NCBI GenBank assembly: GCA_045606105.1
Contig: JAZURI010000005.1
Coordinates: 1-64,000, forward strand
Reading direction: 5' to 3'
Source of the DNA: Spirochaetia bacterium
Lineage (GTDB): Bacteria > Spirochaetota > Spirochaetia > CADAEX01
DNA: 64,000 nt
In this document: positions 17,030-26,993 of the stretch, one piece after another
Numbering within the stretch: position 1 is the first letter of the stretch
Layout: each line of letters begins with the position of its first letter
The notes under the pieces: generated by a model
Databases searched by the model: none
The model's input: the letters and a program-made list of their open reading frames with translations, nothing else
What the model was told of the DNA's origin: nothing
Made by a program: the position numbers and the translations under genes

Positions 17030-17497
17030 ATGTCTGAGGAAAAAGAATTTTACAAAAACAAAACCTTAGAGGAAATGACCCCGGAAGAATGGGAAATGCT
17101 CTGCGACGGATGCGGCAAATGCTGTTATAACAAGTATATAACGGGCAGGGGAAAAAACACCAGGCTTTATTATACCAGCGTGAGCTGTAATTTTCTGGAT
17201 GTCGGAACAGGGCGGTGCATGGATTATGAAAACCGGTTCAGGAACAACAGGAACTGCCTGAAACTCTCATTACGCAACCTGAAGGAATTCACATGGCTGC
17301 CGGAAACCTGTGCATACAGGCTGATATATGAAGGAAAGAATCTTCCGGACTGGCATCCTCTGATAAGCGGCATTCCCGTTGCGGAAAATCCGGCGGCCCG
17401 GGAATACCTGATAAAAAACGGAATCCGCGAATCCGAAGCAGAATACTGGGAAGACCATGTAATAAGCTGCTGCAGGTTGACCGATCTACAACAGTAG
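17030..17497 (+). CDS. ycgN: YcgN/UPF0260 cysteine-cluster protein
   Basis: EWEMLCDGCGKCC, WLPETCAYR, WHPLISG; stop codon lies within the terminal CRISPR repeat. Confidence 0.88.
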   Translation: MSEEKEFYKNKTLEEMTPEEWEMLCDGCGKCCYNKYITGRGKNTRLYYTSVSCNFLDVGTGRCMDYENRFRNNRNCLKLSLRNLKEFTWLPETCAYRLIYEGKNLPDWHPLISGIPVAENPAAREYLIKNGIRESEAEYWEDHVISCCRLTDLQQ

Positions 17498-18947
17498 AAA
17501 TTTACTTAGAAGTCTAAACTAACCCATTTCCTGAAGCCATTCCAATCTACAACAGTAGAAATTTACTTAGAAGTCTAAACGGTGCGGCGTAGTCGTTATC
17601 ATCCAATCTACAACAGTAGAAATTTACTTAGAAGTCTAAACGCTCGGTGATAGCCTGGCCGAATTCAATCTACAACAGTAGAAATTTACTTAGAAGTCTA
17701 AACAAGTTGTAAAACCCATTGACCATTTGATCTACAACAGTAGAAATTTACTTAGAAGTCTAAACGATTTCATAAGCTTCTGATAGTTCATATCTACAAC
17801 AGTAGAAATTTACTTAGAAGTCTAAACACGATAGCAATAAACCAATACATCAAAATCTACAACAGTAGAAATTTACTTAGAAGTCTAAACTTTTCTGATA
17901 TTAGTGATATTATCTATCTACAACAGTAGAAATTTACTTAGAAGTCTAAACTTTTCTGATATTACTGATATTATCTATCTACAACAGTAGAAATTTACTT
18001 AGAAGTCTAAACAAGTTGCAAAACCCATTGACCATTTGATCTACAACAGTAGAAATTTACTTAGAAGTCTAAACGAAAGTGGTTAGAATAACAGGCAATT
18101 AATCTACAACAGTAGAAATTTACTTAGAAGTCTAGACTCTTTATTGGTTTTGACACCATCTTTATCTACAACAGTAGAAATTTACTTAGAAGTCTAAACT
18201 CTTGAGCTACTGTCTTCAAATCATACATCTACAACAGTAGAAATTTACTTAGAAGTCTAAACCGATTAAGCTCGGCGATTACCCGGTGATCTACAACAGT
18301 AGAAATTTACTTAGAAGTCTAAACAGGTCCAACTTCTACGATGTTCTGCCAATCTACAACAGTAGAAATTTACTTAGAAGTCTAAACGCTCCGCCTCTCA
18401 ATTCATTGCCTCCATCTACAACAGTAGAAATTTACTTAGAAGTCTAAACTTATCTAAATTCAAAGAAGCTTATGAATCTACAACAGTAGAAATTTACTTA
18501 GAAGTCTAAACGTGAATATATGTATATGGGAATTAAGATCTACAACAGTAGAAATTTACTTAGAAGTCTAAACCGGCAAAAACTTCAGGTAGAACATCAA
18601 TCTACAACAGTAGAAATTTACTTAGAAGTCTAAACTATAGATTCAAGATATGACTGAAACCATCTACAACAGTAGAAATTTACTTAGAAGTCTAAACCGG
18701 CAAAAACCTCAGGTAGAACATCAATCTACAACAGTAGAAATTTACTTAGAAGTCTAAACAGTGTTTCTGTCATTTTTTATCTCCTTATCTACAACAGTAG
18801 AAATTTACTTAGAAGTCTAAACCGAAATCAAGTTCATCTTCCACCTCCTATCTACAACAGTAGAAATTTACTTAGAAGTCTAAACTTCCCGAGGACTGTC
18901 TTGCCGTCCGTATCTACAACAGTAGAAATTTACTTAGAAGTCTAAAC
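17484..18947 (-). CRISPR. Type V-A CRISPR array: 24 repeats of 36 nt, 23 spacers of 25-27 nt
   Basis: Repeat GTTTAGACTTCTAAGTAAATTTCTACTGTTGTAGAT with the Cas12a handle AATTTCTAC-TGTT-GTAGAT; one variant base at 18135. Confidence 0.99.
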
Positions 18948-19053
18948 TCTAACAGTGGGTACAACAGTACCAAAATGGGCTTTTTCTTCAAAGTTTTCAA
19001 AGTTAAGCCTATATAAATTACTGATTTTTCTCAGTAAGACCATAGGTCTGCAA
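18948..19053 (-). promoter_or_regulatory. CRISPR leader
   Basis: AT-rich non-coding segment between the cas2 stop and the first repeat. Confidence 0.8.
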
Positions 19054-19329
19054 TCAACTGATAAGAAAAATTTCTTTCTCTTCATTCTTTGCATATCCAT
19101 AACATGTCTTTTTGCAGCTTTCACTTAATTCAAATATAATAATACTATCTTCTTCTGTAAAGTGTCTTGAATAGATATTTTCTATTTCTGTCTTTATGTT
19201 TCTTAAAACGGTTTCGCTATTGTGTATCTCAAACACCGAATACTGAAGCCGAAAACCGAATTTAGCCAAAAATTTAGAAAATCGTGTTCTGATTTTATCA
19301 TTACTTATGTCATAACTTACCAGAAGCAT
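19054..19329 (-). CDS. cas2: CRISPR-associated Cas2
   Basis: LVSYDIS, RLQYSVFE; 91 aa. Confidence 0.96.
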   Translation of the reverse strand: MLLVSYDISNDKIRTRFSKFLAKFGFRLQYSVFEIHNSETVLRNIKTEIENIYSRHFTEEDSIIIFELSESCKKTCYGYAKNEEKEIFLIS

Positions 19330-20300
19330 CAGGTTTCCTCCAGATAAAAAACCGGAAATTCCCCGGCCGGCTTATCCCTCATAAACGCCCTGTAATAGGA
19401 TTGGATATAAATGAATATTTCATTTTTATATTCCATCAAGGTCTCCAGGAGTATTCCAATATACTTCTTTGAATTTTTCCAGGGAAGAATATATTGATTC
19501 TGATTTTTCCAGAAATCCTTTTCGTTGACCTGACCAAGATTCAATGTCTTCAATATTGCAGCATCAATAATAGGTCGAAATGGTTCTTCCAGATCACACA
19601 CCAGAGATTTTCTATGAAAAAACTGAGTGTGCAGAATTCCCACATAGACATCAAAACCGTACATTTCAAGCAAAGCATTTACTATATTGAATAAAATTGT
19701 ATAACCTATATCCATCAATGTGTTTGTAATGTCATTCTTTACCCTGGGCTGCCGGGCTTTCCAGTTATAATCAGCAAACATAGTCTTAAAATATAATTTT
19801 GCACTTACCCCTTCGATTCCCATTATTTCCTGAACTGACAAACCTGCTTCCAGAACGTCTTTTTCATACTGTTCCAATTTAGCTATGATGATTTTTTCTT
19901 CTTCAGTCTTCTTTCGTTTCTTTTTCAACAAAAATGCCTGATTATGAATTTTGTTTGCAATTACGTGGGAAGCAATTTCTGTCTTATCGTATGCATACTG
20001 CTTCTGTCGAAGCAAAACATTTCCCTCTGCTTTTGATGGAAGGATTGAAGTAATCCTCAGATTTGGGCTCATGAAAACTATTGTATATCCAAACTTCTTA
20101 GATCGATCCAGCAGCCCGCTTGTCAGACAGAAGTCTCCGCATATGAACAATGCAAACAACCGGTAACAGGTTGATTGATGTTTTATTTTTCCATCTCTGT
20201 CAGTTACTATAAAGTTATCGTTCTTGAAACTCAGCTTTTCTCCGTCCGATGTAAATACAAAAGCAATCTGCTTATGCTCAAAATCTCTTGTACTCATCAT
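19329..20300 (-). CDS. cas1: Type V Cas1
   Basis: MGIEG, GILH, SLVCDLEEPFRP motifs. Confidence 0.95.
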   Translation of the reverse strand: MMSTRDFEHKQIAFVFTSDGEKLSFKNDNFIVTDRDGKIKHQSTCYRLFALFICGDFCLTSGLLDRSKKFGYTIVFMSPNLRITSILPSKAEGNVLLRQKQYAYDKTEIASHVIANKIHNQAFLLKKKRKKTEEEKIIIAKLEQYEKDVLEAGLSVQEIMGIEGVSAKLYFKTMFADYNWKARQPRVKNDITNTLMDIGYTILFNIVNALLEMYGFDVYVGILHTQFFHRKSLVCDLEEPFRPIIDAAILKTLNLGQVNEKDFWKNQNQYILPWKNSKKYIGILLETLMEYKNEIFIYIQSYYRAFMRDKPAGEFPVFYLEET

Positions 20301-20882
20301 CTAAAAGCCTCCGTTATATTCCTTGGGAGCTAAAGGTCGGTCGCAGAAATCATTATAAATACATTTTTTACATTTTTCTTCATTCTGGGGAACAAATGCA
20401 TTCATATCAAAATTCTGCATTGCTTTGTTTGTTGCTTTAAACTTTTCAAACATCTGAACATCATCTTCCGGTAAAGGAACCGGATAAACTTTGTTATCGT
20501 CGCTGGAATAAAATCTAAGTTGTTTTACAGTATATCCCATCTCTCTGAGACAAAGGCACTGGGCATACAGTTGAAAAACGTATCCGTCATAAATTGTTTC
20601 AATATGCTTTTTTCGTTCTGTAAGTAATCCTTTTTCAATATCAAAAATATCTATTTTACCGCATAATTTATATTCATCAGAATAAATATCCAGACCTTGT
20701 AGAATATTTTTATGGGTAGAATACCGTTTTTCATCTATAGCCTCATGAGCAGCTTTCCCGTCAAGCTGGGCAGAACCATAGTATAGCCGTTCGGAAAGAC
20801 TGCCGTAAAGCTGATGATAATAAATGGAAAGAGGACAGAATATGAAATCATTCAAATAACTAATTCTTAGGTAAAGTTCCAT
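20301..20882 (-). CDS. cas4: Type V Cas4
   Basis: FCP, GKID, ERK, QLYAQ, CxxCxxxxxC Fe-S ligands. Confidence 0.93.
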   Translation of the reverse strand: MELYLRISYLNDFIFCPLSIYYHQLYGSLSERLYYGSAQLDGKAAHEAIDEKRYSTHKNILQGLDIYSDEYKLCGKIDIFDIEKGLLTERKKHIETIYDGYVFQLYAQCLCLREMGYTVKQLRFYSSDDNKVYPVPLPEDDVQMFEKFKATNKAMQNFDMNAFVPQNEEKCKKCIYNDFCDRPLAPKEYNGGF

Positions 20883-21723
20883 TTTCAGGCTCTTGGTTTA
20901 CTAAATAATTTTCTGAAGAAATTACTGAATGCCCCAACTCCTTTTCTGTCTGCTTCCGGGCAATTCCTGCAACATTTCCGCCGCGGCTTGCAACTTTTTT
21001 GTTTTCATTAAAAGTTTCCGGTTTTTCCTGCTGCGAAATCTCTGTTGTAACACGCTCCCCAAGCATGGTAAAAATCAACTCCAGGTCTGTCATGTGATCA
21101 CGCAGATTCTGATTTTTTTTAGTTAAACCTTTATATGTCTTATATTCAGAAGGTGTCAGTCCAAAAGTCGCTTTTGAAATTTCTGCTGTTAGAATCGCAA
21201 AATCTTTTTCTTTTGTAATTCCACGCTCTTTCCATTCATCAGTTAAATTTTGACGAATTGCAATTCCTCGTAACCGTTTATCTATCCAATCTTTTGGGTA
21301 ACCTTTTTTCTCGTAAAGCTCTTTCATTCTTTCTTGAGAAAGTTCTGGATTTTCAATTTCTTGTATGCGTTCATATCCAACTTGCGCAAGCCATTGCTTA
21401 AAAGGTTCAGCCTTTGGAGATGGGATAGATTGAATTATACGAAGAATAGATTTTACATTGGCTGAAAGAGTCTTTCTTTTTACCCCGGCTGCAGTATACA
21501 TTTCTACCTGGGGACAATTTGTCCCCAGGAAACTTCCGAGACTTTCATCTCTTTTTCTTAATTTTTTCAAATAATCTGTAGGATTTACGCTTTCTGTCAG
21601 AACTCCTACAACATCAACAACAGAAAAATACCACTGTTCTTCTTCTTCATTCCAAACAGACCGGATTTTACCATCCTGAAAGATTTTAATATGTTGCAAA
21701 GATTTTTCAGAATTATTTTGCAT
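20860..21723 (-). CDS. Bro-N domain (antirepressor-like) protein with DinD-like C-terminal region
   Basis: IRSVW..WYFSVVDVV, IQSIPSPKAEPFKQWLAQVG, NLRDHMTDLELIF. Confidence 0.8.
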   Translation of the reverse strand: MQNNSEKSLQHIKIFQDGKIRSVWNEEEEQWYFSVVDVVGVLTESVNPTDYLKKLRKRDESLGSFLGTNCPQVEMYTAAGVKRKTLSANVKSILRIIQSIPSPKAEPFKQWLAQVGYERIQEIENPELSQERMKELYEKKGYPKDWIDKRLRGIAIRQNLTDEWKERGITKEKDFAILTAEISKATFGLTPSEYKTYKGLTKKNQNLRDHMTDLELIFTMLGERVTTEISQQEKPETFNENKKVASRGGNVAGIARKQTEKELGHSVISSENYLVNQEPENGTLPKN

Positions 21724-24700
21724 ATTCTTTGTCCTGCACAAACTTGAACCAATCGGCATGAGAAATATTCTGTATTACACCCTTTTCATCACGGTTAAAA
21801 TTATTTTGCAATAAATACAAGCCTTTTAATGCAATATGATATGCCCCGTTTGCATCTGCATCTATTGGCAACTTTGCATTTTTACCTTTTTTAGCTTCTT
21901 CCCTGGAATCAAAGAATGTTCCGTCTTCTGATTTTACAGGAGAAATTAAGTAGTCAATTTCTGTGTTTGGAATAGAATTTCTCATTTGCAAAATTGCATT
22001 AAACATTCTTAAAAGTGTATCAAAAAATTTTGCATTTGATTTTTCAGCTTGGATTGTATGGACGGAATCAATAAAATTATCTTCATTATTCCAATTTATT
22101 CCAAAGTCATCAAAAATATTCTTTAACTGTTCTGTTGGATTTATACTAATATTCATGCGTTCTGCTTTATTGTAAACAAGTCGTTCTCCTTTTGTGTAAA
22201 CTTCCCACTTTTTCTTAAAATCAGCATTATCACAGATTTTTCCATAATCAAATCCAAATACAAAACAATCTTCTTTTGAATCATAACGTAGAGAATCAAA
22301 TTTTTCGAAAAACTCTTTTTTCTTTTCTACATTTGTTAATCCTTTTGTAATGAAAAGATTTGCAAAACCAGTTTTTGGATCAATTTTTGAAGTATAAGCT
22401 GCAGGGATATAGAAAAGCCATCCACATTGTTTATTAACATCACTTACATTTGCAGATTTATTTGTTAATTGATAAGCATTAAGAACTCCACCAGGCTCTG
22501 TTACCTTTTTATCTTTGAAAACAAGATAATTTAGCTTTTCAATTAACATATTTTCAAATTTTTGATAAATCTGTCTTTCTACAGCAAAACGACCTCGCTT
22601 AAATCCAAAATTCAAATCTTCCATAACAACAATTGCGTTATGTTCAACCATCATTTTTGCAATTTCATGAACAACAGCAGATAGATAGCCTTCTTTTAAT
22701 TCTTTGATATTTCCAATTGTTTGCCAGTTTTTACGAGCCTTGTCTCTGTCACCTTCTTTGTGTACAAGTTTTTCCTGATAATTTACTTTTACCGTTTTAT
22801 CATTTCTAACTTGGTCAACAAGATTCAATGTTTTTTGAAGTTCAATTTCACCTTTTTGATTTATTAATGAAAGATAAATAAGATGACGTTCTCCTCGATC
22901 CAATCCAATAATTTTTACATCAGTATTACCACTTAACACTTCAAGAACTTGATTATTAAATTCTTTATTTGATTTATCAGGTGCCTTAAAGTTCATTGTA
23001 ATAGGACAATGGAAAAGATAAGTATCTTCTATAAAGCGATTATCCTTTGTAATATCGTGAGTTGCTTCTTTACAAACAACAACTCCTGAATCTAACAATG
23101 ATTTTGCAGTTTCTGAAATAGTATCAGTCATTTTGTTTTTGAATTGATAAATTTCTTGATAAATGTCTTCTGGAATTGATTTTCCGTCATTTGTTGTTCT
23201 ATTTACAAGAATTGAACCTTTTTTGTGAACAGTTACTTTTTCTTTGTTCAAACTTGGTTTTCGCCAGAATAATTCTGCTTCTCCATTTAATTTTAGACAA
23301 ACATCTTTTAAATTTTCTTCACTAAAAAGATTTTCCCAATAAAGTGTATGAAGATTTTTCTTTCCAGAAGTTTTTGAAGCAAAGTCTTTGTTATAGATTT
23401 GGAAAAGGAAAAGTTTTCCTTCGTTTACTAGTTTATCAATATACTCCTTACGGATAGTAACAAATTGAATTTGATATGCCTGCGAATTTACATCATCTGT
23501 AAAACTTTGAAACGAATAATATTCTTTTGTTTCTTTGAAAATAAAATCATAAGCATCAAAGTATTCCTTTGTTAATACCTTATAATAATCAATATATTTT
23601 ATTAAGTCGTCTTTACTAAAAGTATCAGAAGTTCGAAGATATGATTTTCTTTTTCTAATTTCATTTATTTCTGTAGGTAAGTAAGCATTTCGATATTCTT
23701 CAATTTGTCTATTTACACCATCCGTATCTTTACGACCATTTTTTTTGACAGTTTTTCCATTAATCCTCAAAAGATTGGGAATATCTTTACTTGGATCAGC
23801 AGCCTGTAGATAAATCATTTTTTCATAATAATTTTCATTTTCCTTTGGTTTCGGATAACTTTTAAATTCATTATGAAAATTTTTATTCATAATACCTAAG
23901 TAATACTTTTCTTTTTCTCTTAATAAAATTGAACCATACATTAATTCATTATTCAAAGCCCAGCCTTTTGCACATGTAGGTGAATCAAAATTCAATTTTA
24001 TCTTCTTCATTTCACCAGGTTTCTTTGTTACAAAATTACGAACTTTGTTATACAAAGGAACAACTTGAGCAAGTGCTGTTAATATATCATCTAATTTTGA
24101 ATAAAAATTTGAATCCTTTTGTTCTTCACCACGATAATCAACAAGTTTTAAGTGATGGTAAAGATTTTGAACTTCGTCCAGATATACTTTTATTGGAGTG
24201 GCAGCTTCTTTCTCTTGTTGTAAATCATGAATATTTTCAAAATCTATTTTTTTAAAGGTCTTATTAATTTCACACAATAAATTTACTTCATAATTGTCAA
24301 TTGTTTCTTTTGTCAGAAAAAATTCCTTTACGGATTTTTCAGCTTCAAGTCCAAATTCTGAGCACCACCTCTCATATGCAGCCTGCATATCGGTTAACGA
24401 GTAATCACTTTCTGCAATTTCATTTTTTAGATTATCCAACTGTCTGTCTGTCAGATTTTTCTTTGCTTTATCTTTTGCTATCAGAAATAAACCTTCTGTT
24501 AAAATTGACCAAGAATTAAAAATTTTCTTGGAAAATTTTGTAATAGATTTTGAAGGTACGTATATTTCTGATAAATCATATTCTTCATTGTTATTCAACA
24601 AATCCCGAATTAATTCTATATATTCTTCAACTACCGACGAATTGAATTCTTTTATAGTTAAGTAAACTTCTTCATTATTTTCAAATCCAACCGGAATAAA

Positions 24701-25621
24701 AGAAGCTGTACCTCGATCGCTTAAAATCTGCTTATAGAGTTCTACCATTTTCTTTTTAAGTTTATACTTTTCTTCATTCGGCAAAGCTTGTCTAGCAAGG
24801 TTTATAAATTCATTTAGGCCTTTAATTTTCTCAGTCCCGGCTTCGCCGGAAATTCCACCGATTATTGTATTATAAAAATCAATTCCACTTTGAGCTATAA
24901 CACTGTTGAAACCATCAATGGTAAATACATAATCAAGAGCTCTGCCTTTTAGATGGTCTTTCAAAGACTTTTCCGTATCACTGATTATTTTTGGAAAATT
25001 AACTTTCAAATAATTATATAATTTGATATTTGCAAAAAATTTTGGAAAATTTTCATGCACAATACGGTAACTAATTGCAGTTGATTCTGCATCTGCACTG
25101 TACATGTTTTTCCTGTTCTCGTGAAAACCTACAAAATATGTACTGAATCTGTTAAAAGCAGCCAAAGCTTTCTGCTTATTTTTGATTTCGTCTTCAGGAG
25201 CATTTTTTATTAATTCAGGCAGAAGTTCCTTAAATAATCCATCCTTGAAAAGTTTATTATATTCTTTTTGAGCATGAAAACCCTCAACTATTTTTTTTCT
25301 TGCTATTGCTTGAAGTTTATCAAGTTTAACTTTATGGGAAGCTTTTTTTTCTCTATCTCTCTCGTTCTGAAGCAAATCAAGCTGATTAAATAAATCTTCC
25401 CAGGAAAATGAAAATTCTTTGAGTGATTTCTCTATGAAATTTCTATGAATATTATCTATAAGTTTTTTTATTTCAGGATACGCTTCAGCACGCTGGATAT
25501 CTGTTTTAAGAAACTGTTTTATATTTTCTTCAGTTTTTCCAATAGGTATTAATCTATTCCTCAAAGTAATAGAACGGGAATATCCGTTCTTCTGTCCGCA
25601 AAATTCATTTAAACCTTTCAT
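21713..25621 (-). CDS. cas12a: Type V-A effector Cas12a (Cpf1), about 1302 aa
   Basis: YSRSITLRNRLIP, NLHTLYW, RuvC motifs IGLDRGERHL / MEDLNFGFKRGR / DADANGAYHIALKG; ATG 25621 follows GGGGGAG. Confidence 0.98.
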   Translation of the reverse strand: MKGLNEFCGQKNGYSRSITLRNRLIPIGKTEENIKQFLKTDIQRAEAYPEIKKLIDNIHRNFIEKSLKEFSFSWEDLFNQLDLLQNERDREKKASHKVKLDKLQAIARKKIVEGFHAQKEYNKLFKDGLFKELLPELIKNAPEDEIKNKQKALAAFNRFSTYFVGFHENRKNMYSADAESTAISYRIVHENFPKFFANIKLYNYLKVNFPKIISDTEKSLKDHLKGRALDYVFTIDGFNSVIAQSGIDFYNTIIGGISGEAGTEKIKGLNEFINLARQALPNEEKYKLKKKMVELYKQILSDRGTASFIPVGFENNEEVYLTIKEFNSSVVEEYIELIRDLLNNNEEYDLSEIYVPSKSITKFSKKIFNSWSILTEGLFLIAKDKAKKNLTDRQLDNLKNEIAESDYSLTDMQAAYERWCSEFGLEAEKSVKEFFLTKETIDNYEVNLLCEINKTFKKIDFENIHDLQQEKEAATPIKVYLDEVQNLYHHLKLVDYRGEEQKDSNFYSKLDDILTALAQVVPLYNKVRNFVTKKPGEMKKIKLNFDSPTCAKGWALNNELMYGSILLREKEKYYLGIMNKNFHNEFKSYPKPKENENYYEKMIYLQAADPSKDIPNLLRINGKTVKKNGRKDTDGVNRQIEEYRNAYLPTEINEIRKRKSYLRTSDTFSKDDLIKYIDYYKVLTKEYFDAYDFIFKETKEYYSFQSFTDDVNSQAYQIQFVTIRKEYIDKLVNEGKLFLFQIYNKDFASKTSGKKNLHTLYWENLFSEENLKDVCLKLNGEAELFWRKPSLNKEKVTVHKKGSILVNRTTNDGKSIPEDIYQEIYQFKNKMTDTISETAKSLLDSGVVVCKEATHDITKDNRFIEDTYLFHCPITMNFKAPDKSNKEFNNQVLEVLSGNTDVKIIGLDRGERHLIYLSLINQKGEIELQKTLNLVDQVRNDKTVKVNYQEKLVHKEGDRDKARKNWQTIGNIKELKEGYLSAVVHEIAKMMVEHNAIVVMEDLNFGFKRGRFAVERQIYQKFENMLIEKLNYLVFKDKKVTEPGGVLNAYQLTNKSANVSDVNKQCGWLFYIPAAYTSKIDPKTGFANLFITKGLTNVEKKKEFFEKFDSLRYDSKEDCFVFGFDYGKICDNADFKKKWEVYTKGERLVYNKAERMNISINPTEQLKNIFDDFGINWNNEDNFIDSVHTIQAEKSNAKFFDTLLRMFNAILQMRNSIPNTEIDYLISPVKSEDGTFFDSREEAKKGKNAKLPIDADANGAYHIALKGLYLLQNNFNRDEKGVIQNISHADWFKFVQDKEYAK

Positions 25622-25632
25622 CTCTCCCCCTT

Positions 25633-26523
25633 TCAATCCTTCTTTACGACTTCGGCCATGCTTGTTACCAGACCGGCCATGTTCTGGATATCGGACGGAA
25701 CTATGATCTTGGTGGCTTTTCCGTCGGCGGCTTTTTCAAACGCCTCCAGGCCGCGGAGCCTGATTACGGCTTCATCAGGCATGGCTTCCTTGATCATCCT
25801 GATACCTTCTGCCTTTGCCTGCTGCACCTCAAGAATGGCCTGGGCCTCTCCTTTGGCCTTCTGTATTGCAGCCTCCTTCTCAGCCTCGGCCTGAAGTATC
25901 ATGGCCTGTTTTTCACCTTCTGCCACCAGGATTGCACTCTGCTTCTGTCCTTCGGCAATGAGAATCTGCTCCCGGCGTTCCCTTTCTGCCTTCATCTACT
26001 TTTCCATGGCATCCTTGATTGCTTCAGGTGGCATGATATTCTTCACCTCCACCCTGTTCACCTTGATTCCCCACGGATCTGTGGCTTCATCCAGGATACT
26101 TCTCATCTTGGTATTGATGATATCGCGGCTTGTAAGGGTCTGGTCCAGCTCCAGCTCTCCGATGATGTTTCTCAGAGTGGTGGCCGAAAGATTCTCAAGA
26201 GCGCTTACCGGCTGCTCAACTCCATAGGTAAACAGCTTCGGATCCGTAATCTGAAAATAGACAACGGTATCAATCATCATGGTTACATTATCCCTGGTAA
26301 TAACCGGCTGGGGAGGGAAATCGAGAACCCGTTCCTTGAGGGAAACGGTCTTTACTATTCTGTCGACAAACGGAAGCTTGATATGAATTCCCACATTCCA
26401 GGTACAGCTGTAGGTTCCCAGCCTCTCCAGAACAGAAGCATAGGACTGAGGAATAATTCTGATATTGGTAACAAGAAGAACTACCAGAATGACAAAAAGA
26501 GTGATACTTACATAAATGGACAT
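25633..26523 (-). pseudogene. SPFH/band-7 (QmcA-like) gene interrupted by an in-frame TAG at 25996-25998
   Basis: Reads AMEK*MKAERERR; the family normally has AMEKQMKAER; the two ORFs are contiguous and in frame. Confidence 0.8.
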
Positions 26524-26531
26524 ATTGCCTC

Positions 26532-26993
26532 CTATTTATTTTTCTTTTCTATTACAAGAGTGTTTCCGTTGACCTTGATGACGGTACAGATCTCTCCCTT
26601 TGAAATCTCACCGCCATCTGCGGTACAGGCACTCCATTCCACCCCGTTGGCTGCCTTGGCTGTTCCCTTGGAAAAACGGCTGATATCTGCGGTAACCAGA
26701 ACTTCCTGACCTGCCATGGCTTCCACATTTGTCTTTGCCTTGCCTGTTTTCAGCTTTCTGACAGCCAGAGGTCTGGTAAAAATAACAAGCAGGGCCGAAA
26801 AAAGGAAAAACAGGAGCAGCTGCCAGCCCAGCGGCATTCCGGTCAGAGATAAAAAAATCATGACAAATGCACTTGCGGCACACCAGATTGTCACCAGCGC
26901 CGCAGTTGCCGCCTCAACAAGCAGCATCAATATGAAAACTGCCAGCCAGAACCAGTAAAGGTGAGAAATAATGAAGCTGTATATTTCCGACAT
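26532..26993 (-). CDS. NfeD family membrane protein
   Basis: Three hydrophobic helices plus OB-fold tail (GxEWSA, VNGNTLVI); upstream of SPFH. Confidence 0.88.
   Translation of the reverse strand: MSEIYSFIISHLYWFWLAVFILMLLVEAATAALVTIWCAASAFVMIFLSLTGMPLGWQLLLFFLFSALLVIFTRPLAVRKLKTGKAKTNVEAMAGQEVLVTADISRFSKGTAKAANGVEWSACTADGGEISKGEICTVIKVNGNTLVIEKKNK

What the first reader, a model, noticed from the sequence alone, without database searches (positions are those of the whole stretch)
23640..24000. Cas12a with replaced PAM-recognition residues and an atypical PI segment
Seen: the WED motif is CAKGWALNNELMYG, against AsCas12a LASGWDVNKEKNNG (recalled), giving S542->K, K548->N and N552->Y. The PI motif is PSKDIPNLLRINGKTVKKNGRK, where the usual (N/A)KM(L/I)PK lysine (As K607, Lb K595) aligns to N and is followed by a basic insertion. 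Known: these positions set TTTV specificity and are the ones mutated in the RR, RVR and enAs variants. RuvC D/E/D and the RNase His motif are intact. Inference: an active nuclease with a relaxed or non-T-rich PAM, potentially useful as a tool. The alignment is by eye.
Basis: partly seen in the sequence, partly recalled or inferred. Interest (0 to 1): 0.8.

Follow-up and report, generated by a model that had tools for sequence, protein, structure and literature searches.

The report
Cas12a with a swappable PAM-reading module

Summary
The ORF at 21713..25636 (-) is a full-length Cas12a (TIGR04330, 1149 bits against a cut-off of 300). It sits in a cas12a-cas4-cas1-cas2 locus with a 24-repeat array. 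HMMER alignments to solved Cas12a structures put Lys at the As-S542 position, Asn at K548, Tyr at N552 and Asn at K607, followed by a basic insert.

The "atypical" PI is not a one-off: 57 of 151 sequences (the query plus 150 representatives of 50%-identity clusters) carry it, and so do 31 species genomes from many phyla. No solved structure has it.

The WED loop and PI behave as one exchangeable cassette (residues ~558-741). P0149 is 76-87% identical to this clade outside the cassette but about 30% inside it, and it carries the canonical lysines. An AU test rejects a single origin of this PI type on the RuvC-Nuc tree (p = 0.0014).

No protospacer was found for this array. Two relatives with the same PI type gave four: three with T-rich flanks (TTTG, TTTC/TTTT, ATTT) and one weak match with CTCC. 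PdCas12a, which has Asn and Tyr at the same WED positions, recognises TTTC.

A T-rich PAM read by other residues is therefore the likeliest outcome. A relaxed PAM remains possible.

The parts
21713..25636 (-). cas12a ORF, 1307 codons from TTG. The probable start is the ATG at 25619-25621 (M6), giving 1302 aa.
   Evidence: ORF list and translation. TIGR04330 cas_Cpf1 equivalog, 1149.2 bits against a cut-off of 300, profile positions 6-1287 of 1288. Pfam REC1, REC2, PI-like, RuvC_1 and NUC. The database copy P0002 is 1302 aa.
23414..23965 (-). Exchangeable WED-loop plus PI cassette, residues ~558-741, 'type c'.
   Evidence: Identity to P0149 is 28% here against 57% (N-terminal part) and 76% (C-terminal part). 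For P0015 vs P0149 the figures are 33% against 76% and 87%, with sharp edges. Coordinates.
23933..23974 (-). WED PAM-loop motif CAKGWALNNELMYG (residues 555-568): K557, N563, Y567.
23729..23794 (-). PI motif PSKDIPNLLRINGKTVKKNGRK (residues 615-636). It comprises a helix with K617 and N621, a predicted beta-hairpin (622-625 and 628-631), and a basic loop with K632, R635 and K636.
   Evidence: AlphaFold2 model of residues 520-780, mean pLDDT 85.2, strands at model positions 103-106 and 109-112. N621, K632, R635 and K636 are at least 90% conserved in 50 type-c sequences.
20860..21759 (-). 299-aa ORF between cas12a and cas4, from a phage protein family (Bro-N domain, phrog_15286). It is probably an insertion and not a core part of the system.
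   Evidence: Pfam Bro-N 5e-10. phrog_15286 7.4e-109. Among the held loci it is present only in G000 and L004.
20301..20882 (-). cas4 (type V)
   Evidence: TIGR04328, 228 bits against a cut-off of 70. Pfam Cas_Cas4.
19329..20300 (-). cas1
   Evidence: Pfam Cas_Cas1 5.1e-51.
19054..19329 (-). cas2
   Evidence: Pfam CRISPR_Cas2 9.8e-18.
17484..18947 (-). CRISPR array: 24 repeats of 36 nt (on the minus strand they end ...TCTACTGTTGTAGAT) and 23 spacers of 25-27 nt. The leader lies at 18948-19053.
   Evidence: 23 of 24 repeats are identical. Three pairs of near-duplicate spacers are present.

Best explanation
This is a working type V-A Cas12a: a crRNA-guided dsDNA nuclease that processes its own crRNA. 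It belongs to a large natural subfamily in which the PAM-reading part is built differently.

The WED-II PAM loop and the whole PI domain (residues ~558-741) form one module. In this 'type c' form:
- The lysine helix keeps K617 but has Asn (N621) where As, Lb and Fn have the groove-inserting lysine.
- The helix is followed by a beta-hairpin and a conserved basic loop (K632, R635, K636).

I infer that this loop, together with K557 in the WED loop, supplies the contacts to the PAM duplex that K607 and K548 make in AsCas12a. I also infer that the PAM is still T-rich (TTTV-like, perhaps looser at one position).

The module has been exchanged between Cas12a lineages as a cassette, so PAM-contact residues do not follow the phylogeny of the rest of the protein.

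Shown here: family membership, intact motifs, the substitutions, the spread of the module, the mosaic pattern, and spacer turnover between strains.
Inferred: which residues read the PAM, and what the PAM is.
For: Membership and integrity.

Substitutions.

Spread of the module:
- All 62 distinct region sequences from the 121 proteins show the motif.
- 57 of 151 sequences (query plus 150 representatives) are type c. Their K607 column is N 48, T 4, C 2, S 1, K 2. In the other 94 sequences it is K/R in 83.
- 31 loci in species genomes titled Treponema, Sulfurimonas, Chitinophaga, Niabella, Lachnospiraceae, Ruminococcus, Prevotella, Saccharibacteria, Moraniibacteriota and others.

Cassette exchange:
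- P0149 (canonical loop and PI) vs P0015 (type c): 87.7% identical in RuvC-Nuc and 20-33% over residues 571-720, with sharp edges.
- Five other pairs of differing PI type have cassette identity of 26-29% whatever the backbone identity.
- On the backbone tree the clade {P0019c, (P0001c, P0009c), (P0015c, P0149a)} has SH-aLRT 100.
- An AU test rejects one clade for the 19 type-c rows (delta lnL 517, p = 0.0014).
- On a 97-row FastTree, 22 changes are needed, of which at least 12 are forced by starred branches.

Fold: the AlphaFold2 model has pLDDT 85.2, and its Foldseek top hits are all Cas12a, with query-normalised TM 0.49-0.64.

T-rich PAM:
- L006 (type c; Arg at the K548 column): a 28/28 protospacer with flank TTTG, and one element in 6 places of 4 genomes at 25-26/27 with flank TTTC x5 and TTTT x1.
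- L019 (type c; Gln at the K548 column): a 27/28 hit in its own genome with flank ATTT.
- PdCas12a, with N and Y at the same WED positions, recognises ATTTC.

Active adaptation.
Against: - No protospacer was found for this array, in any collection searched.
- PAM evidence comes from only four independent protospacers of two relatives. Neither relative has this protein's WED loop.
- One of the four (24/26) has a CTCC flank.
- The L019 hit has a mismatch at position 1 and T at -1, so it may be a tolerated self-target and not a licensed one.
- No flank statistics were computed.
- The residue-to-DNA contacts are inferred from conservation and a DNA-free model. No superposition at residue level was possible.
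- The direction of the P0149 swap is open: the AU test does not reject the four type-c relatives as a clade without P0149 (p = 0.254).
- The 150 representatives are the best-scoring matches to the query's own region, so 57 of 151 overstates the share of type c among all 992 hits.
- In PiCas12a, Ser at the K548 position goes with acceptance of G in the PAM. Loss of that lysine can therefore loosen specificity.
Confidence: 0.55

Rival explanations
1. One reading: loss of both PAM lysines gives this enzyme a relaxed or non-T-rich PAM, distinct from TTTV.
For: - N563 and N621 replace the two lysines.
- The WED loop varies even among close relatives: CAKGWALNNE, CANGWAFYNE and LANGWPLKNE in proteins 70-98% identical over the region. 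Rapid variation of this kind would fit diversifying PAM choice.
- PiCas12a, with Ser at the K548 position, accepts G at -2 to -4.
- A metagenomic Cas12a with a near PAM-less profile exists (Gs12-10; preprint 10.1101/2024.09.27.615316, passages).
- One weak protospacer of a type-c relative has a CTCC flank.
Against: - Three of four protospacers of type-c relatives have a TTT run next to the protospacer.
- L019 also lacks Lys/Arg at both columns.
- PdCas12a, with N/Y at the same WED positions, is TTTC-specific.
- The basic loop conserved across the whole subfamily argues for a retained, constrained DNA contact.
- Protein2PAM reports that type V PAMs are highly conserved (PMC11741284, passages).
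Confidence: 0.22
2. The Lys-to-Asn change and the cassette exchange are driven by anti-CRISPR pressure and not by PAM choice. The type-c PI removes the lysine that AcrVA5-type acetyltransferases modify, while keeping a T-rich PAM.
For: - AcrVA5 inactivates Cas12a by acetylating a key conserved lysine needed for PAM binding (PMC9114340, passages; PDB 6iv6 title).
- Type c has Asn at the column of the PI lysine in 48 of 57 sequences.
- The cassette moves between lineages.
Against: - That the acetylated lysine is the K607-equivalent is recalled and was not read here.
- No acr gene was looked for in this window.
- AcrVA5 has broad lysine targets, so other lysines of the basic loop could be hit.
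- There is no test of any kind.
Confidence: 0.15
3. The PI region is degenerate and the enzyme no longer licenses dsDNA targets. It would be a decaying locus, or one that binds without a PAM check.
For: - Pfam's PI model matches only residues 654-721, at E 1.8e-07.
- No protospacer was found for any of the 23 spacers.
Against: - The segment is more conserved than the rest of the protein between type-c relatives: P0001 vs P0018 is 67% in the cassette against 38% and 59% in the flanks.
- It is predicted with high confidence (block pLDDT 89-98 for model residues 81-220 and 66-93 before them).
- cas4, cas1 and cas2 are intact.
- Spacers turn over between strains.
Confidence: 0.04

Closest known systems
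AsCas12a, LbCas12a, FnCas12a, MbCas12a, AmCas12a and Lb2Cas12a (solved type V-A effectors; PDB 5b43, 5xus, 5ng6, 6iv6, 8kgf, 8h9d)
   Same: Same family and domain order. The RuvC and RNase motifs align. The repeat ends in the same TCTACTGTTGTAGAT hairpin, and the cas4-cas1-cas2 neighbours are the same. The predicted fold of residues 520-780 matches their WED-PI parts.
   Different: All of them have Lys/Arg-type PI motifs, either short (KM.PKVF) or As-like long (KM.PKC...). None has the Asn plus hairpin and basic-loop insert. The best region match is only E 1.6e-13. The WED loop here has no Lys at the K548 position.
PdCas12a and PiCas12a (Jacobsen et al. 2020, PMC7261169)
   Same: Natural Cas12a with a non-lysine residue at the As-K548 position (Pd: Asn, Pi: Ser) and an aromatic residue at the N552 position (Pd: Tyr, Pi: Phe). 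The query has N563 and Y567, as Pd does (passages).
   Different: Their PI type was not checked here because the alignment is in a supplement I could not open. They are Prevotella enzymes 95.7% identical to each other, whereas this protein belongs to another clade. Pd is TTTC-specific and Pi is relaxed, so the residues alone do not predict the PAM.
Exchange of the PAM-interacting domain among Cas9 orthologues (for example the Neisseria Nme1/Nme2 Cas9 pair; recalled, not read here)
   Same: A PAM-reading module whose history differs from that of the nuclease backbone.
   Different: A different protein family and fold. For Cas12a I found no description of natural exchange in the searches.
Cas12a2, Cas12a3 and Cas12a4 (PMC12851939)
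   Same: Cas12a relatives that share the repeats and have altered PI domains.
   Different: They are RNA-triggered, carry a zinc ribbon and lack the Cas12a Nuc architecture. This protein matches Pfam NUC and RuvC_1 over their full length and TIGR04330, and only Cas12a chains were hit in the PDB.

Membership tests
Cas12a / Cpf1 (type V-A effector) | Full-length match to the curated family model above its cut-off | tested here: met
   TIGR04330 equivalog, 1149.2 bits against a cut-off of 300, profile positions 6-1287 of 1288.
Cas12a / Cpf1 (type V-A effector) | Domain set REC1, REC2, PI, RuvC and Nuc | tested here: met
   Pfam PF18501, PF21918, PF22222 (partial: profile 23-91 of 91), PF18516 and PF18510.
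Cas12a / Cpf1 (type V-A effector) | RuvC D/E/D and the crRNA-processing His/Lys residues | tested here: met
   D913, H804 and K864 align to the catalytic residues of Fn and Am chains. The EDLNF and DADANGA motifs are present and conserved. Which residues are catalytic is taken from recall of the As and Fn literature.
Cas12a / Cpf1 (type V-A effector) | 36-nt repeat with the 3' stem-loop ...TCTACTGTTGTAGAT, no tracrRNA, and adjacent cas4-cas1-cas2 | tested here: met
   24 repeats. cas4, cas1 and cas2. A tracrRNA was not searched for.
Cas12a / Cpf1 (type V-A effector) | PAM-contacting lysines (As K548 and K607) as in the characterised enzymes. This is typical of the family, not strictly defining. 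| tested here: not met
   N563 and N621. 26 of 151 sampled sequences also lack K/R at both columns.
Cas12a / Cpf1 (type V-A effector) | 5' T-rich PAM on the non-target strand | tested here: inconclusive
   No protospacer was found for this array. Two type-c relatives gave TTTG, TTTC/TTTT, ATTT and one CTCC.
Cas12a2 / Cas12a3 / Cas12a4 | Zinc ribbon, PFS-reading PI and RNA-triggered activity, forming clades separate from Cas12a | tested here: not met
   All 26 PDB sequences matched are Cas12a, Cpf1 or ReChb. Full-length Cas12a Nuc and RuvC domains are present. 60% overall identity to a canonical-PI Cas12a. Activity is not testable here.

The most novel reading that the evidence does not exclude
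The WED-loop plus PI segment of Cas12a is a mobile specificity cassette that lineages trade, as Cas9 lineages trade PI domains. The lysine-less type-c form would be a counter-measure to lysine-acetylating anti-CRISPRs and/or a way to shift the PAM. This enzyme lacks Lys/Arg at both classical positions, so it would read a relaxed PAM through a hairpin and basic loop that no solved structure shows.
Probability: 0.2. Interest if true: 0.75.

Novelty: new variant of a known kind. Interest (0 to 1): 0.45.

Why it matters
Cas12a tools are limited by the TTTV PAM, and engineering has centred on the very residues replaced here. Three points follow.

- A large natural subfamily reads its PAM with a different PI build and has no solved structure. 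I found no characterised member in print, so it is an unexplored source of PAM-reading solutions.
- The evidence that the WED loop and PI move together as a cassette between otherwise near-identical enzymes gives natural boundaries (about residues 558-741 here) for making chimeras.
- The same evidence helps explain why PAM profiles do not follow Cas12a phylogeny.

If the PAM turns out to be plain TTTV, the value is mainly structural and evolutionary.

Tried and rejected
Protospacer hunts for the window's own 23 spacers, all negative:
- blastn-short against the 1.46-Mb genome. The best hit was 21 nt with 2 mismatches.
- The whole array against 50,697 phage records. Only repeat-like hits appeared.
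- The array against 20 genomes of the family, which is also the whole order.
- The array against 401 genomes of the class. Only ribosome-binding-site-like partial hits of 19-23 nt appeared.
- The array against 401 genomes of the family of G404. The best hit was 22/27 at a ribosome-binding site.
- Four exact or IUPAC spacer patterns in viral contigs gave 0 hits each.
- One wobble-tolerant pattern gave 14 hits at chance level, 17-22 of 26 positions.
- Two patterns in metagenome contigs gave 0 hits.

Relatives:
- Two L005 spacers in viral contigs gave 0 hits.
- The arrays of L016, L030, L011 and L006 against phages, and L006 against plasmids, gave nothing.
- The L016 array against 301 genomes gave nothing.
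- The L024 array against 251 genomes gave one 23/27 hit, which I treat as chance.
- Self-genome searches for L026, L014 and L011 gave nothing.

Ideas dropped:
- Cas12a2/3/4 identity.
- The 23/27 match of spacer 18760-18786 next to a phrog_15286 homologue in L049 as a true protospacer. It is dominated by a ribosome-binding site and start codon, and its E-value per genome is 0.0012 over 401 genomes.
- Nesting of P0149 inside the type-c clade as proof of direction. The AU test gave p = 0.254.
- Naming the organism. L004's record says Treponema sp., but its MAG sits in another order than G000.

Literature: the searches found no description of this PI type or of natural Cas12a PI exchange. These cover only the held open-access library. 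Supplements are closed, so sequence alignments and ortholog lists that may hold type-c members were not seen (for example Document S1 of PMC7261169 and the tables of PMC13330018 and of 10.1101/2024.09.27.615316).

Foldseek gives no residue mapping, so no contact could be assigned.

Full report
What is there.

Window 21713..25636 (-) is one open frame of 1307 codons from a TTG. The database copy of the protein is 1302 aa (P0002), which fits a start at the ATG five codons in (25619-25621).

It is a Cas12a on every test I could apply:
- TIGR04330 (cas_Cpf1, equivalog): 1149.2 bits against a cut-off of 300, over profile positions 6-1287 of 1288.
- Pfam REC1, REC2, a partial PI-like match, RuvC_1 and NUC.
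- All 26 distinct PDB sequences matched are Cas12a, Cpf1 or the reconstructed ReChb.

Downstream on the same strand lie:
- a 299-aa phage-family ORF (Bro-N, phrog_15286);
- cas4 (TIGR04328), cas1 and cas2;
- an array of 24 repeats of 36 nt with 23 spacers of 25-27 nt.

The repeat ends in the Cas12a hairpin. The island from 17 to 26 kb has 27-39% G+C, in a 1.46-Mb, 99%-complete genome of 45-47% G+C.

The observation.

Both motifs are present at the stated place (coordinates). phmmer alignments to the Fn, Mb, Am and ReChb chains give:
- K557 at the As-S542 position;
- N563 at As-K548 / Fn-K613;
- Y567 at As-N552;
- K617 at As-K603;
- N621 at As-K607 / Fn-K671;
- then an insert absent from the Fn, Mb and ReChb chains.

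As numbering is carried over through the conserved motifs and the literature. No As alignment was printed. Tyr at the N552 position is what LbCas12a has naturally.

The RuvC Asp, the RNase His and the RNase Lys align (D913, H804, K864). The other two RuvC motifs are present and conserved.

It is a subfamily trait, not a one-off.

A word-indexed search with residues 540-720 gave 218 proteins at E <= 0.001 among 432 candidates. The 120 listed, plus the query, collapse to 62 distinct region sequences, and all of them have the same PI motif.

An index-free phmmer search of 1.84 billion cluster representatives with residues 500-800 gave 992 hits at E <= 0.001. I classified the best 150 plus the query by alignment columns:
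- 86 have the short canonical PI ('type a', ..NKMLPKVFF..).
- 8 have the As-like long PI ('type b').
- 57 have the query's form ('type c').

In type c the K607 column is N 48, T 4, C 2, S 1, K 2. In types a and b it is K/R in 83 of 94. At the K548 column type c has K/R in 34 of 57. 26 of 151 sequences lack K/R at both columns, and 22 of those are type c.

The sample is the best-scoring 150, so it is enriched for the query's own type.

A pattern scan of one genome per species found 31 loci encoding type-c PI. The genomes are titled Treponema, Spirochaetales, Sulfurimonas, Chitinophaga, Niabella, Christensenellaceae, Bacteroidales, Clostridia, Gastranaerophilales, Saccharibacteria, Thermoguttaceae, Lachnospiraceae, Flavobacteriaceae, Acetobacterium, Ruminococcus, Lentisphaerae, Moraniibacteriota, Prevotella and others. 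26 of the 31 have a V-A array downstream within the fetched locus.

No solved structure has this PI. With the region alone the best PDB hit is E 1.6e-13 (ReChb, type a), and the printed or length-implied alignments of all 26 hits lack the insert.

The module and its history.

On a FastTree of the RuvC-Nuc part of 97 full-length sequences, PI type is scattered. 22 changes between type c and the rest are needed, and at least 12 are forced by well-supported branches. The shuffled mean is 27.5, and 5 of 500 shuffles were as low.

The query's nearest neighbour there was P0149, a type-a protein. The pairwise figures are:
- P0001 vs P0149: 60% identical overall, but 10-35% over residues ~561-720 and 60-95% elsewhere.
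- P0015 (type c) vs P0149: 74.8% overall, 87.7% in RuvC-Nuc and 20-33% over residues 571-720. The identity breaks right after KLNFDCPT and resumes at ESYI.SLVDSGKLFLF.

The swapped piece therefore includes both the WED PAM loop and the PI domain. P0149 has GWDLNKE and LLPGPNKMLPKVFF, that is, both lysines.

Five further pairs of differing PI type have cassette identity of 26-29%, with backbones 37-62% identical. Same-type pairs have cassette identity equal to or above the backbone. P0149's cassette is 61-69% identical to type-a cassettes of other backbones, including the Cas12a of G006, a genome of the window's own genus.

An IQ-TREE (quick) tree of 39 rows gives the clade {P0019c, (P0001c, P0009c), (P0015c, P0149a)} SH-aLRT 100, and the pair P0015+P0149 99.

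Two AU tests were run:
- One clade for all 19 type-c rows is rejected (delta lnL 517, p = 0.0014).
- The four type-c members as a clade without P0149 is not rejected (p = 0.254).

So which lineage did the swapping is open. I had seen the FastTree before naming the AU groups, but the groups were defined from PI columns only.

Structure.

AlphaFold2 on residues 520-780, with 49 type-c relatives as the alignment, gave mean pLDDT 85.2 and pTM 0.74. Block pLDDT is 89-98 from model residue 81 to 220. Earlier blocks are lower: 66 for 31-40, which holds the GW loop, 82 for 41-50 and 89-93 for 51-80. In the model:
- PSKDIPN is helical (model 96-102).
- LLRI and KTVK form a hairpin (model 103-106 and 109-112).
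- A loop (KNGRKDTDGVN) and two helices follow.

Foldseek's best PDB matches are all Cas12a, with query-normalised TM 0.49-0.64.

In the 50-sequence alignment N621, L622, I625, G627, T629, K632, G634, R635, K636, P654 and N658 are at least 90% conserved, and R661 is invariant. That a basic loop is held fixed where the classical lysine is gone is my reason to infer that it takes over DNA contacts. No tool here could place DNA, so this is an inference.

The PAM.

None of the 23 spacers found a target (listed under Tried and rejected).

For relatives with type-c PI, the array of L006 (a Sulfurimonas MAG with 92 spacers; WED loop GWPVDRE, so Arg at the K548 column) was searched against 251 genomes of its family. 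It gave:
- a 28/28 match with 5' flank TTTG;
- one element present at 6 places in 4 genomes at 25-26/27, with flanks TTTC (5) and TTTT (1);
- a 24/26 match with flank CTCC, inside a large ORF.

The array of L019 (a Treponema MAG with 41 spacers; GWPVGQE, so no Lys/Arg in the loop) was searched against 301 genomes. It gave one 27/28 match in its own genome, with the mismatch at position 1 and flank ATTT. The other short hits were solitary repeat halves.

That makes four independent protospacers, three of them with a TTT run next to the protospacer. I computed no statistics on the flanks.

From the literature (Jacobsen et al. 2020, passages read):
- PdCas12a has Asp-Asn at the As-N547/K548 positions and Tyr at N552, and strongly recognised only ATTTC.
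- PiCas12a, 95.7% identical to it, has Asn-Ser and Phe there and accepts G.

Protein2PAM reports conserved type V PAMs and over-prediction of TTTN for Cas12a (passages). A near PAM-less metagenomic Cas12a has been reported (passages).

Together these make a T-rich PAM the most likely (about 0.7). Some loosening is a real possibility, and a wholly different PAM is unlikely.

Is the system alive?

L004 is an 8-kb contig of another MAG. Compared with the window:
- It differs at 13 sites over the cas genes (19054-25636), which is 99.8% identity.
- It differs at 25 sites in about 1 kb of flank.
- It shares none of its 5 leader-side spacers with the window.

The window's array also holds three pairs of near-duplicate spacers. 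Both facts fit ongoing acquisition.

Comparison and novelty.

The protein is a member of Cas12a. What differs is the PAM-reading module. I found no paper describing this PI build, or natural PI exchange in Cas12a (searches; open-access library only, supplements closed). Sequences of this type are already in public databases, labelled Cas12a/Cpf1.

I therefore file it as a new variant of a known kind, of moderate interest. However, the module itself, its spread, its lack of any solved structure and its cassette-like exchange are worth a specialist's look.

A speculative driver is escape from AcrVA5, which acetylates the PAM lysine. That the target is the K607-equivalent is recalled, not read here.

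Noticed in passing
window 20860-21759 (-): A 299-aa gene of a phage protein family (Bro-N domain, phrog_15286 at E 7e-109, weak anti-repressor Ant and DinD likeness) sits inside the cas operon between cas12a and cas4. It overlaps the end of cas12a by 47 nt and also overlaps the start of cas4. Among the held loci it is only in G000 and L004. A 64% homologue lies in L049 (another genome of the class).
   Followed up: partly
phage records MK496734 ~2206-2239; KF114879 64618-64646; KF114880; KX656785; OQ749652 28566-28600; PV368563 32059-32130: Solitary sequences 90-98% identical to the Cas12a repeat occur in a capybara microvirus, Leptospira phages, a human-gut phage and a Proteus phage. They matched the arrays of the window, L011 and L006. 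They could be repeat mimics that act against CRISPR (an idea from recall). I did not examine them.
   Followed up: no
L004 (= G1580:C161) vs window 18600-26621: The cas genes are 99.8% identical and the flank 97.5% identical. Yet the MAG holding L004 is in the family of G404, while G000 sits in a 20-genome order of its own. This points to mis-binning of the 8-kb contig or to recent transfer of the island.
   Followed up: partly
window 17704-17729 / 18013-18038; 17891-17915 / 17952-17976; 18574-18599 / 18698-18723: Three pairs of spacers differ by one base each, as if the same target, or an escape variant of it, was sampled twice.
   Followed up: no
G404:C5:65730-65756 (L145): The Treponema MAG that carries the type-c Cas12a of L019 holds a 27/28 match to one of its own spacers. 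The mismatch is at position 1 and the flank is ATTT. This is a possible tolerated self-target.
   Followed up: partly
L146, L147, L149-L155 (genomes of the family of G404): Many genomes hold isolated 19-24-nt copies of the 3' half of the V-A repeat outside arrays.
   Followed up: no
G006:C1:244-4212 and G006:C12:4085-5704: A genome of the window's own genus has a Cas12a with the canonical short PI (GWDLNKE, LLPGPNKMLPKVFF) and an array with a different repeat 5' half. Both PI types therefore occur within one genus.
   Followed up: partly
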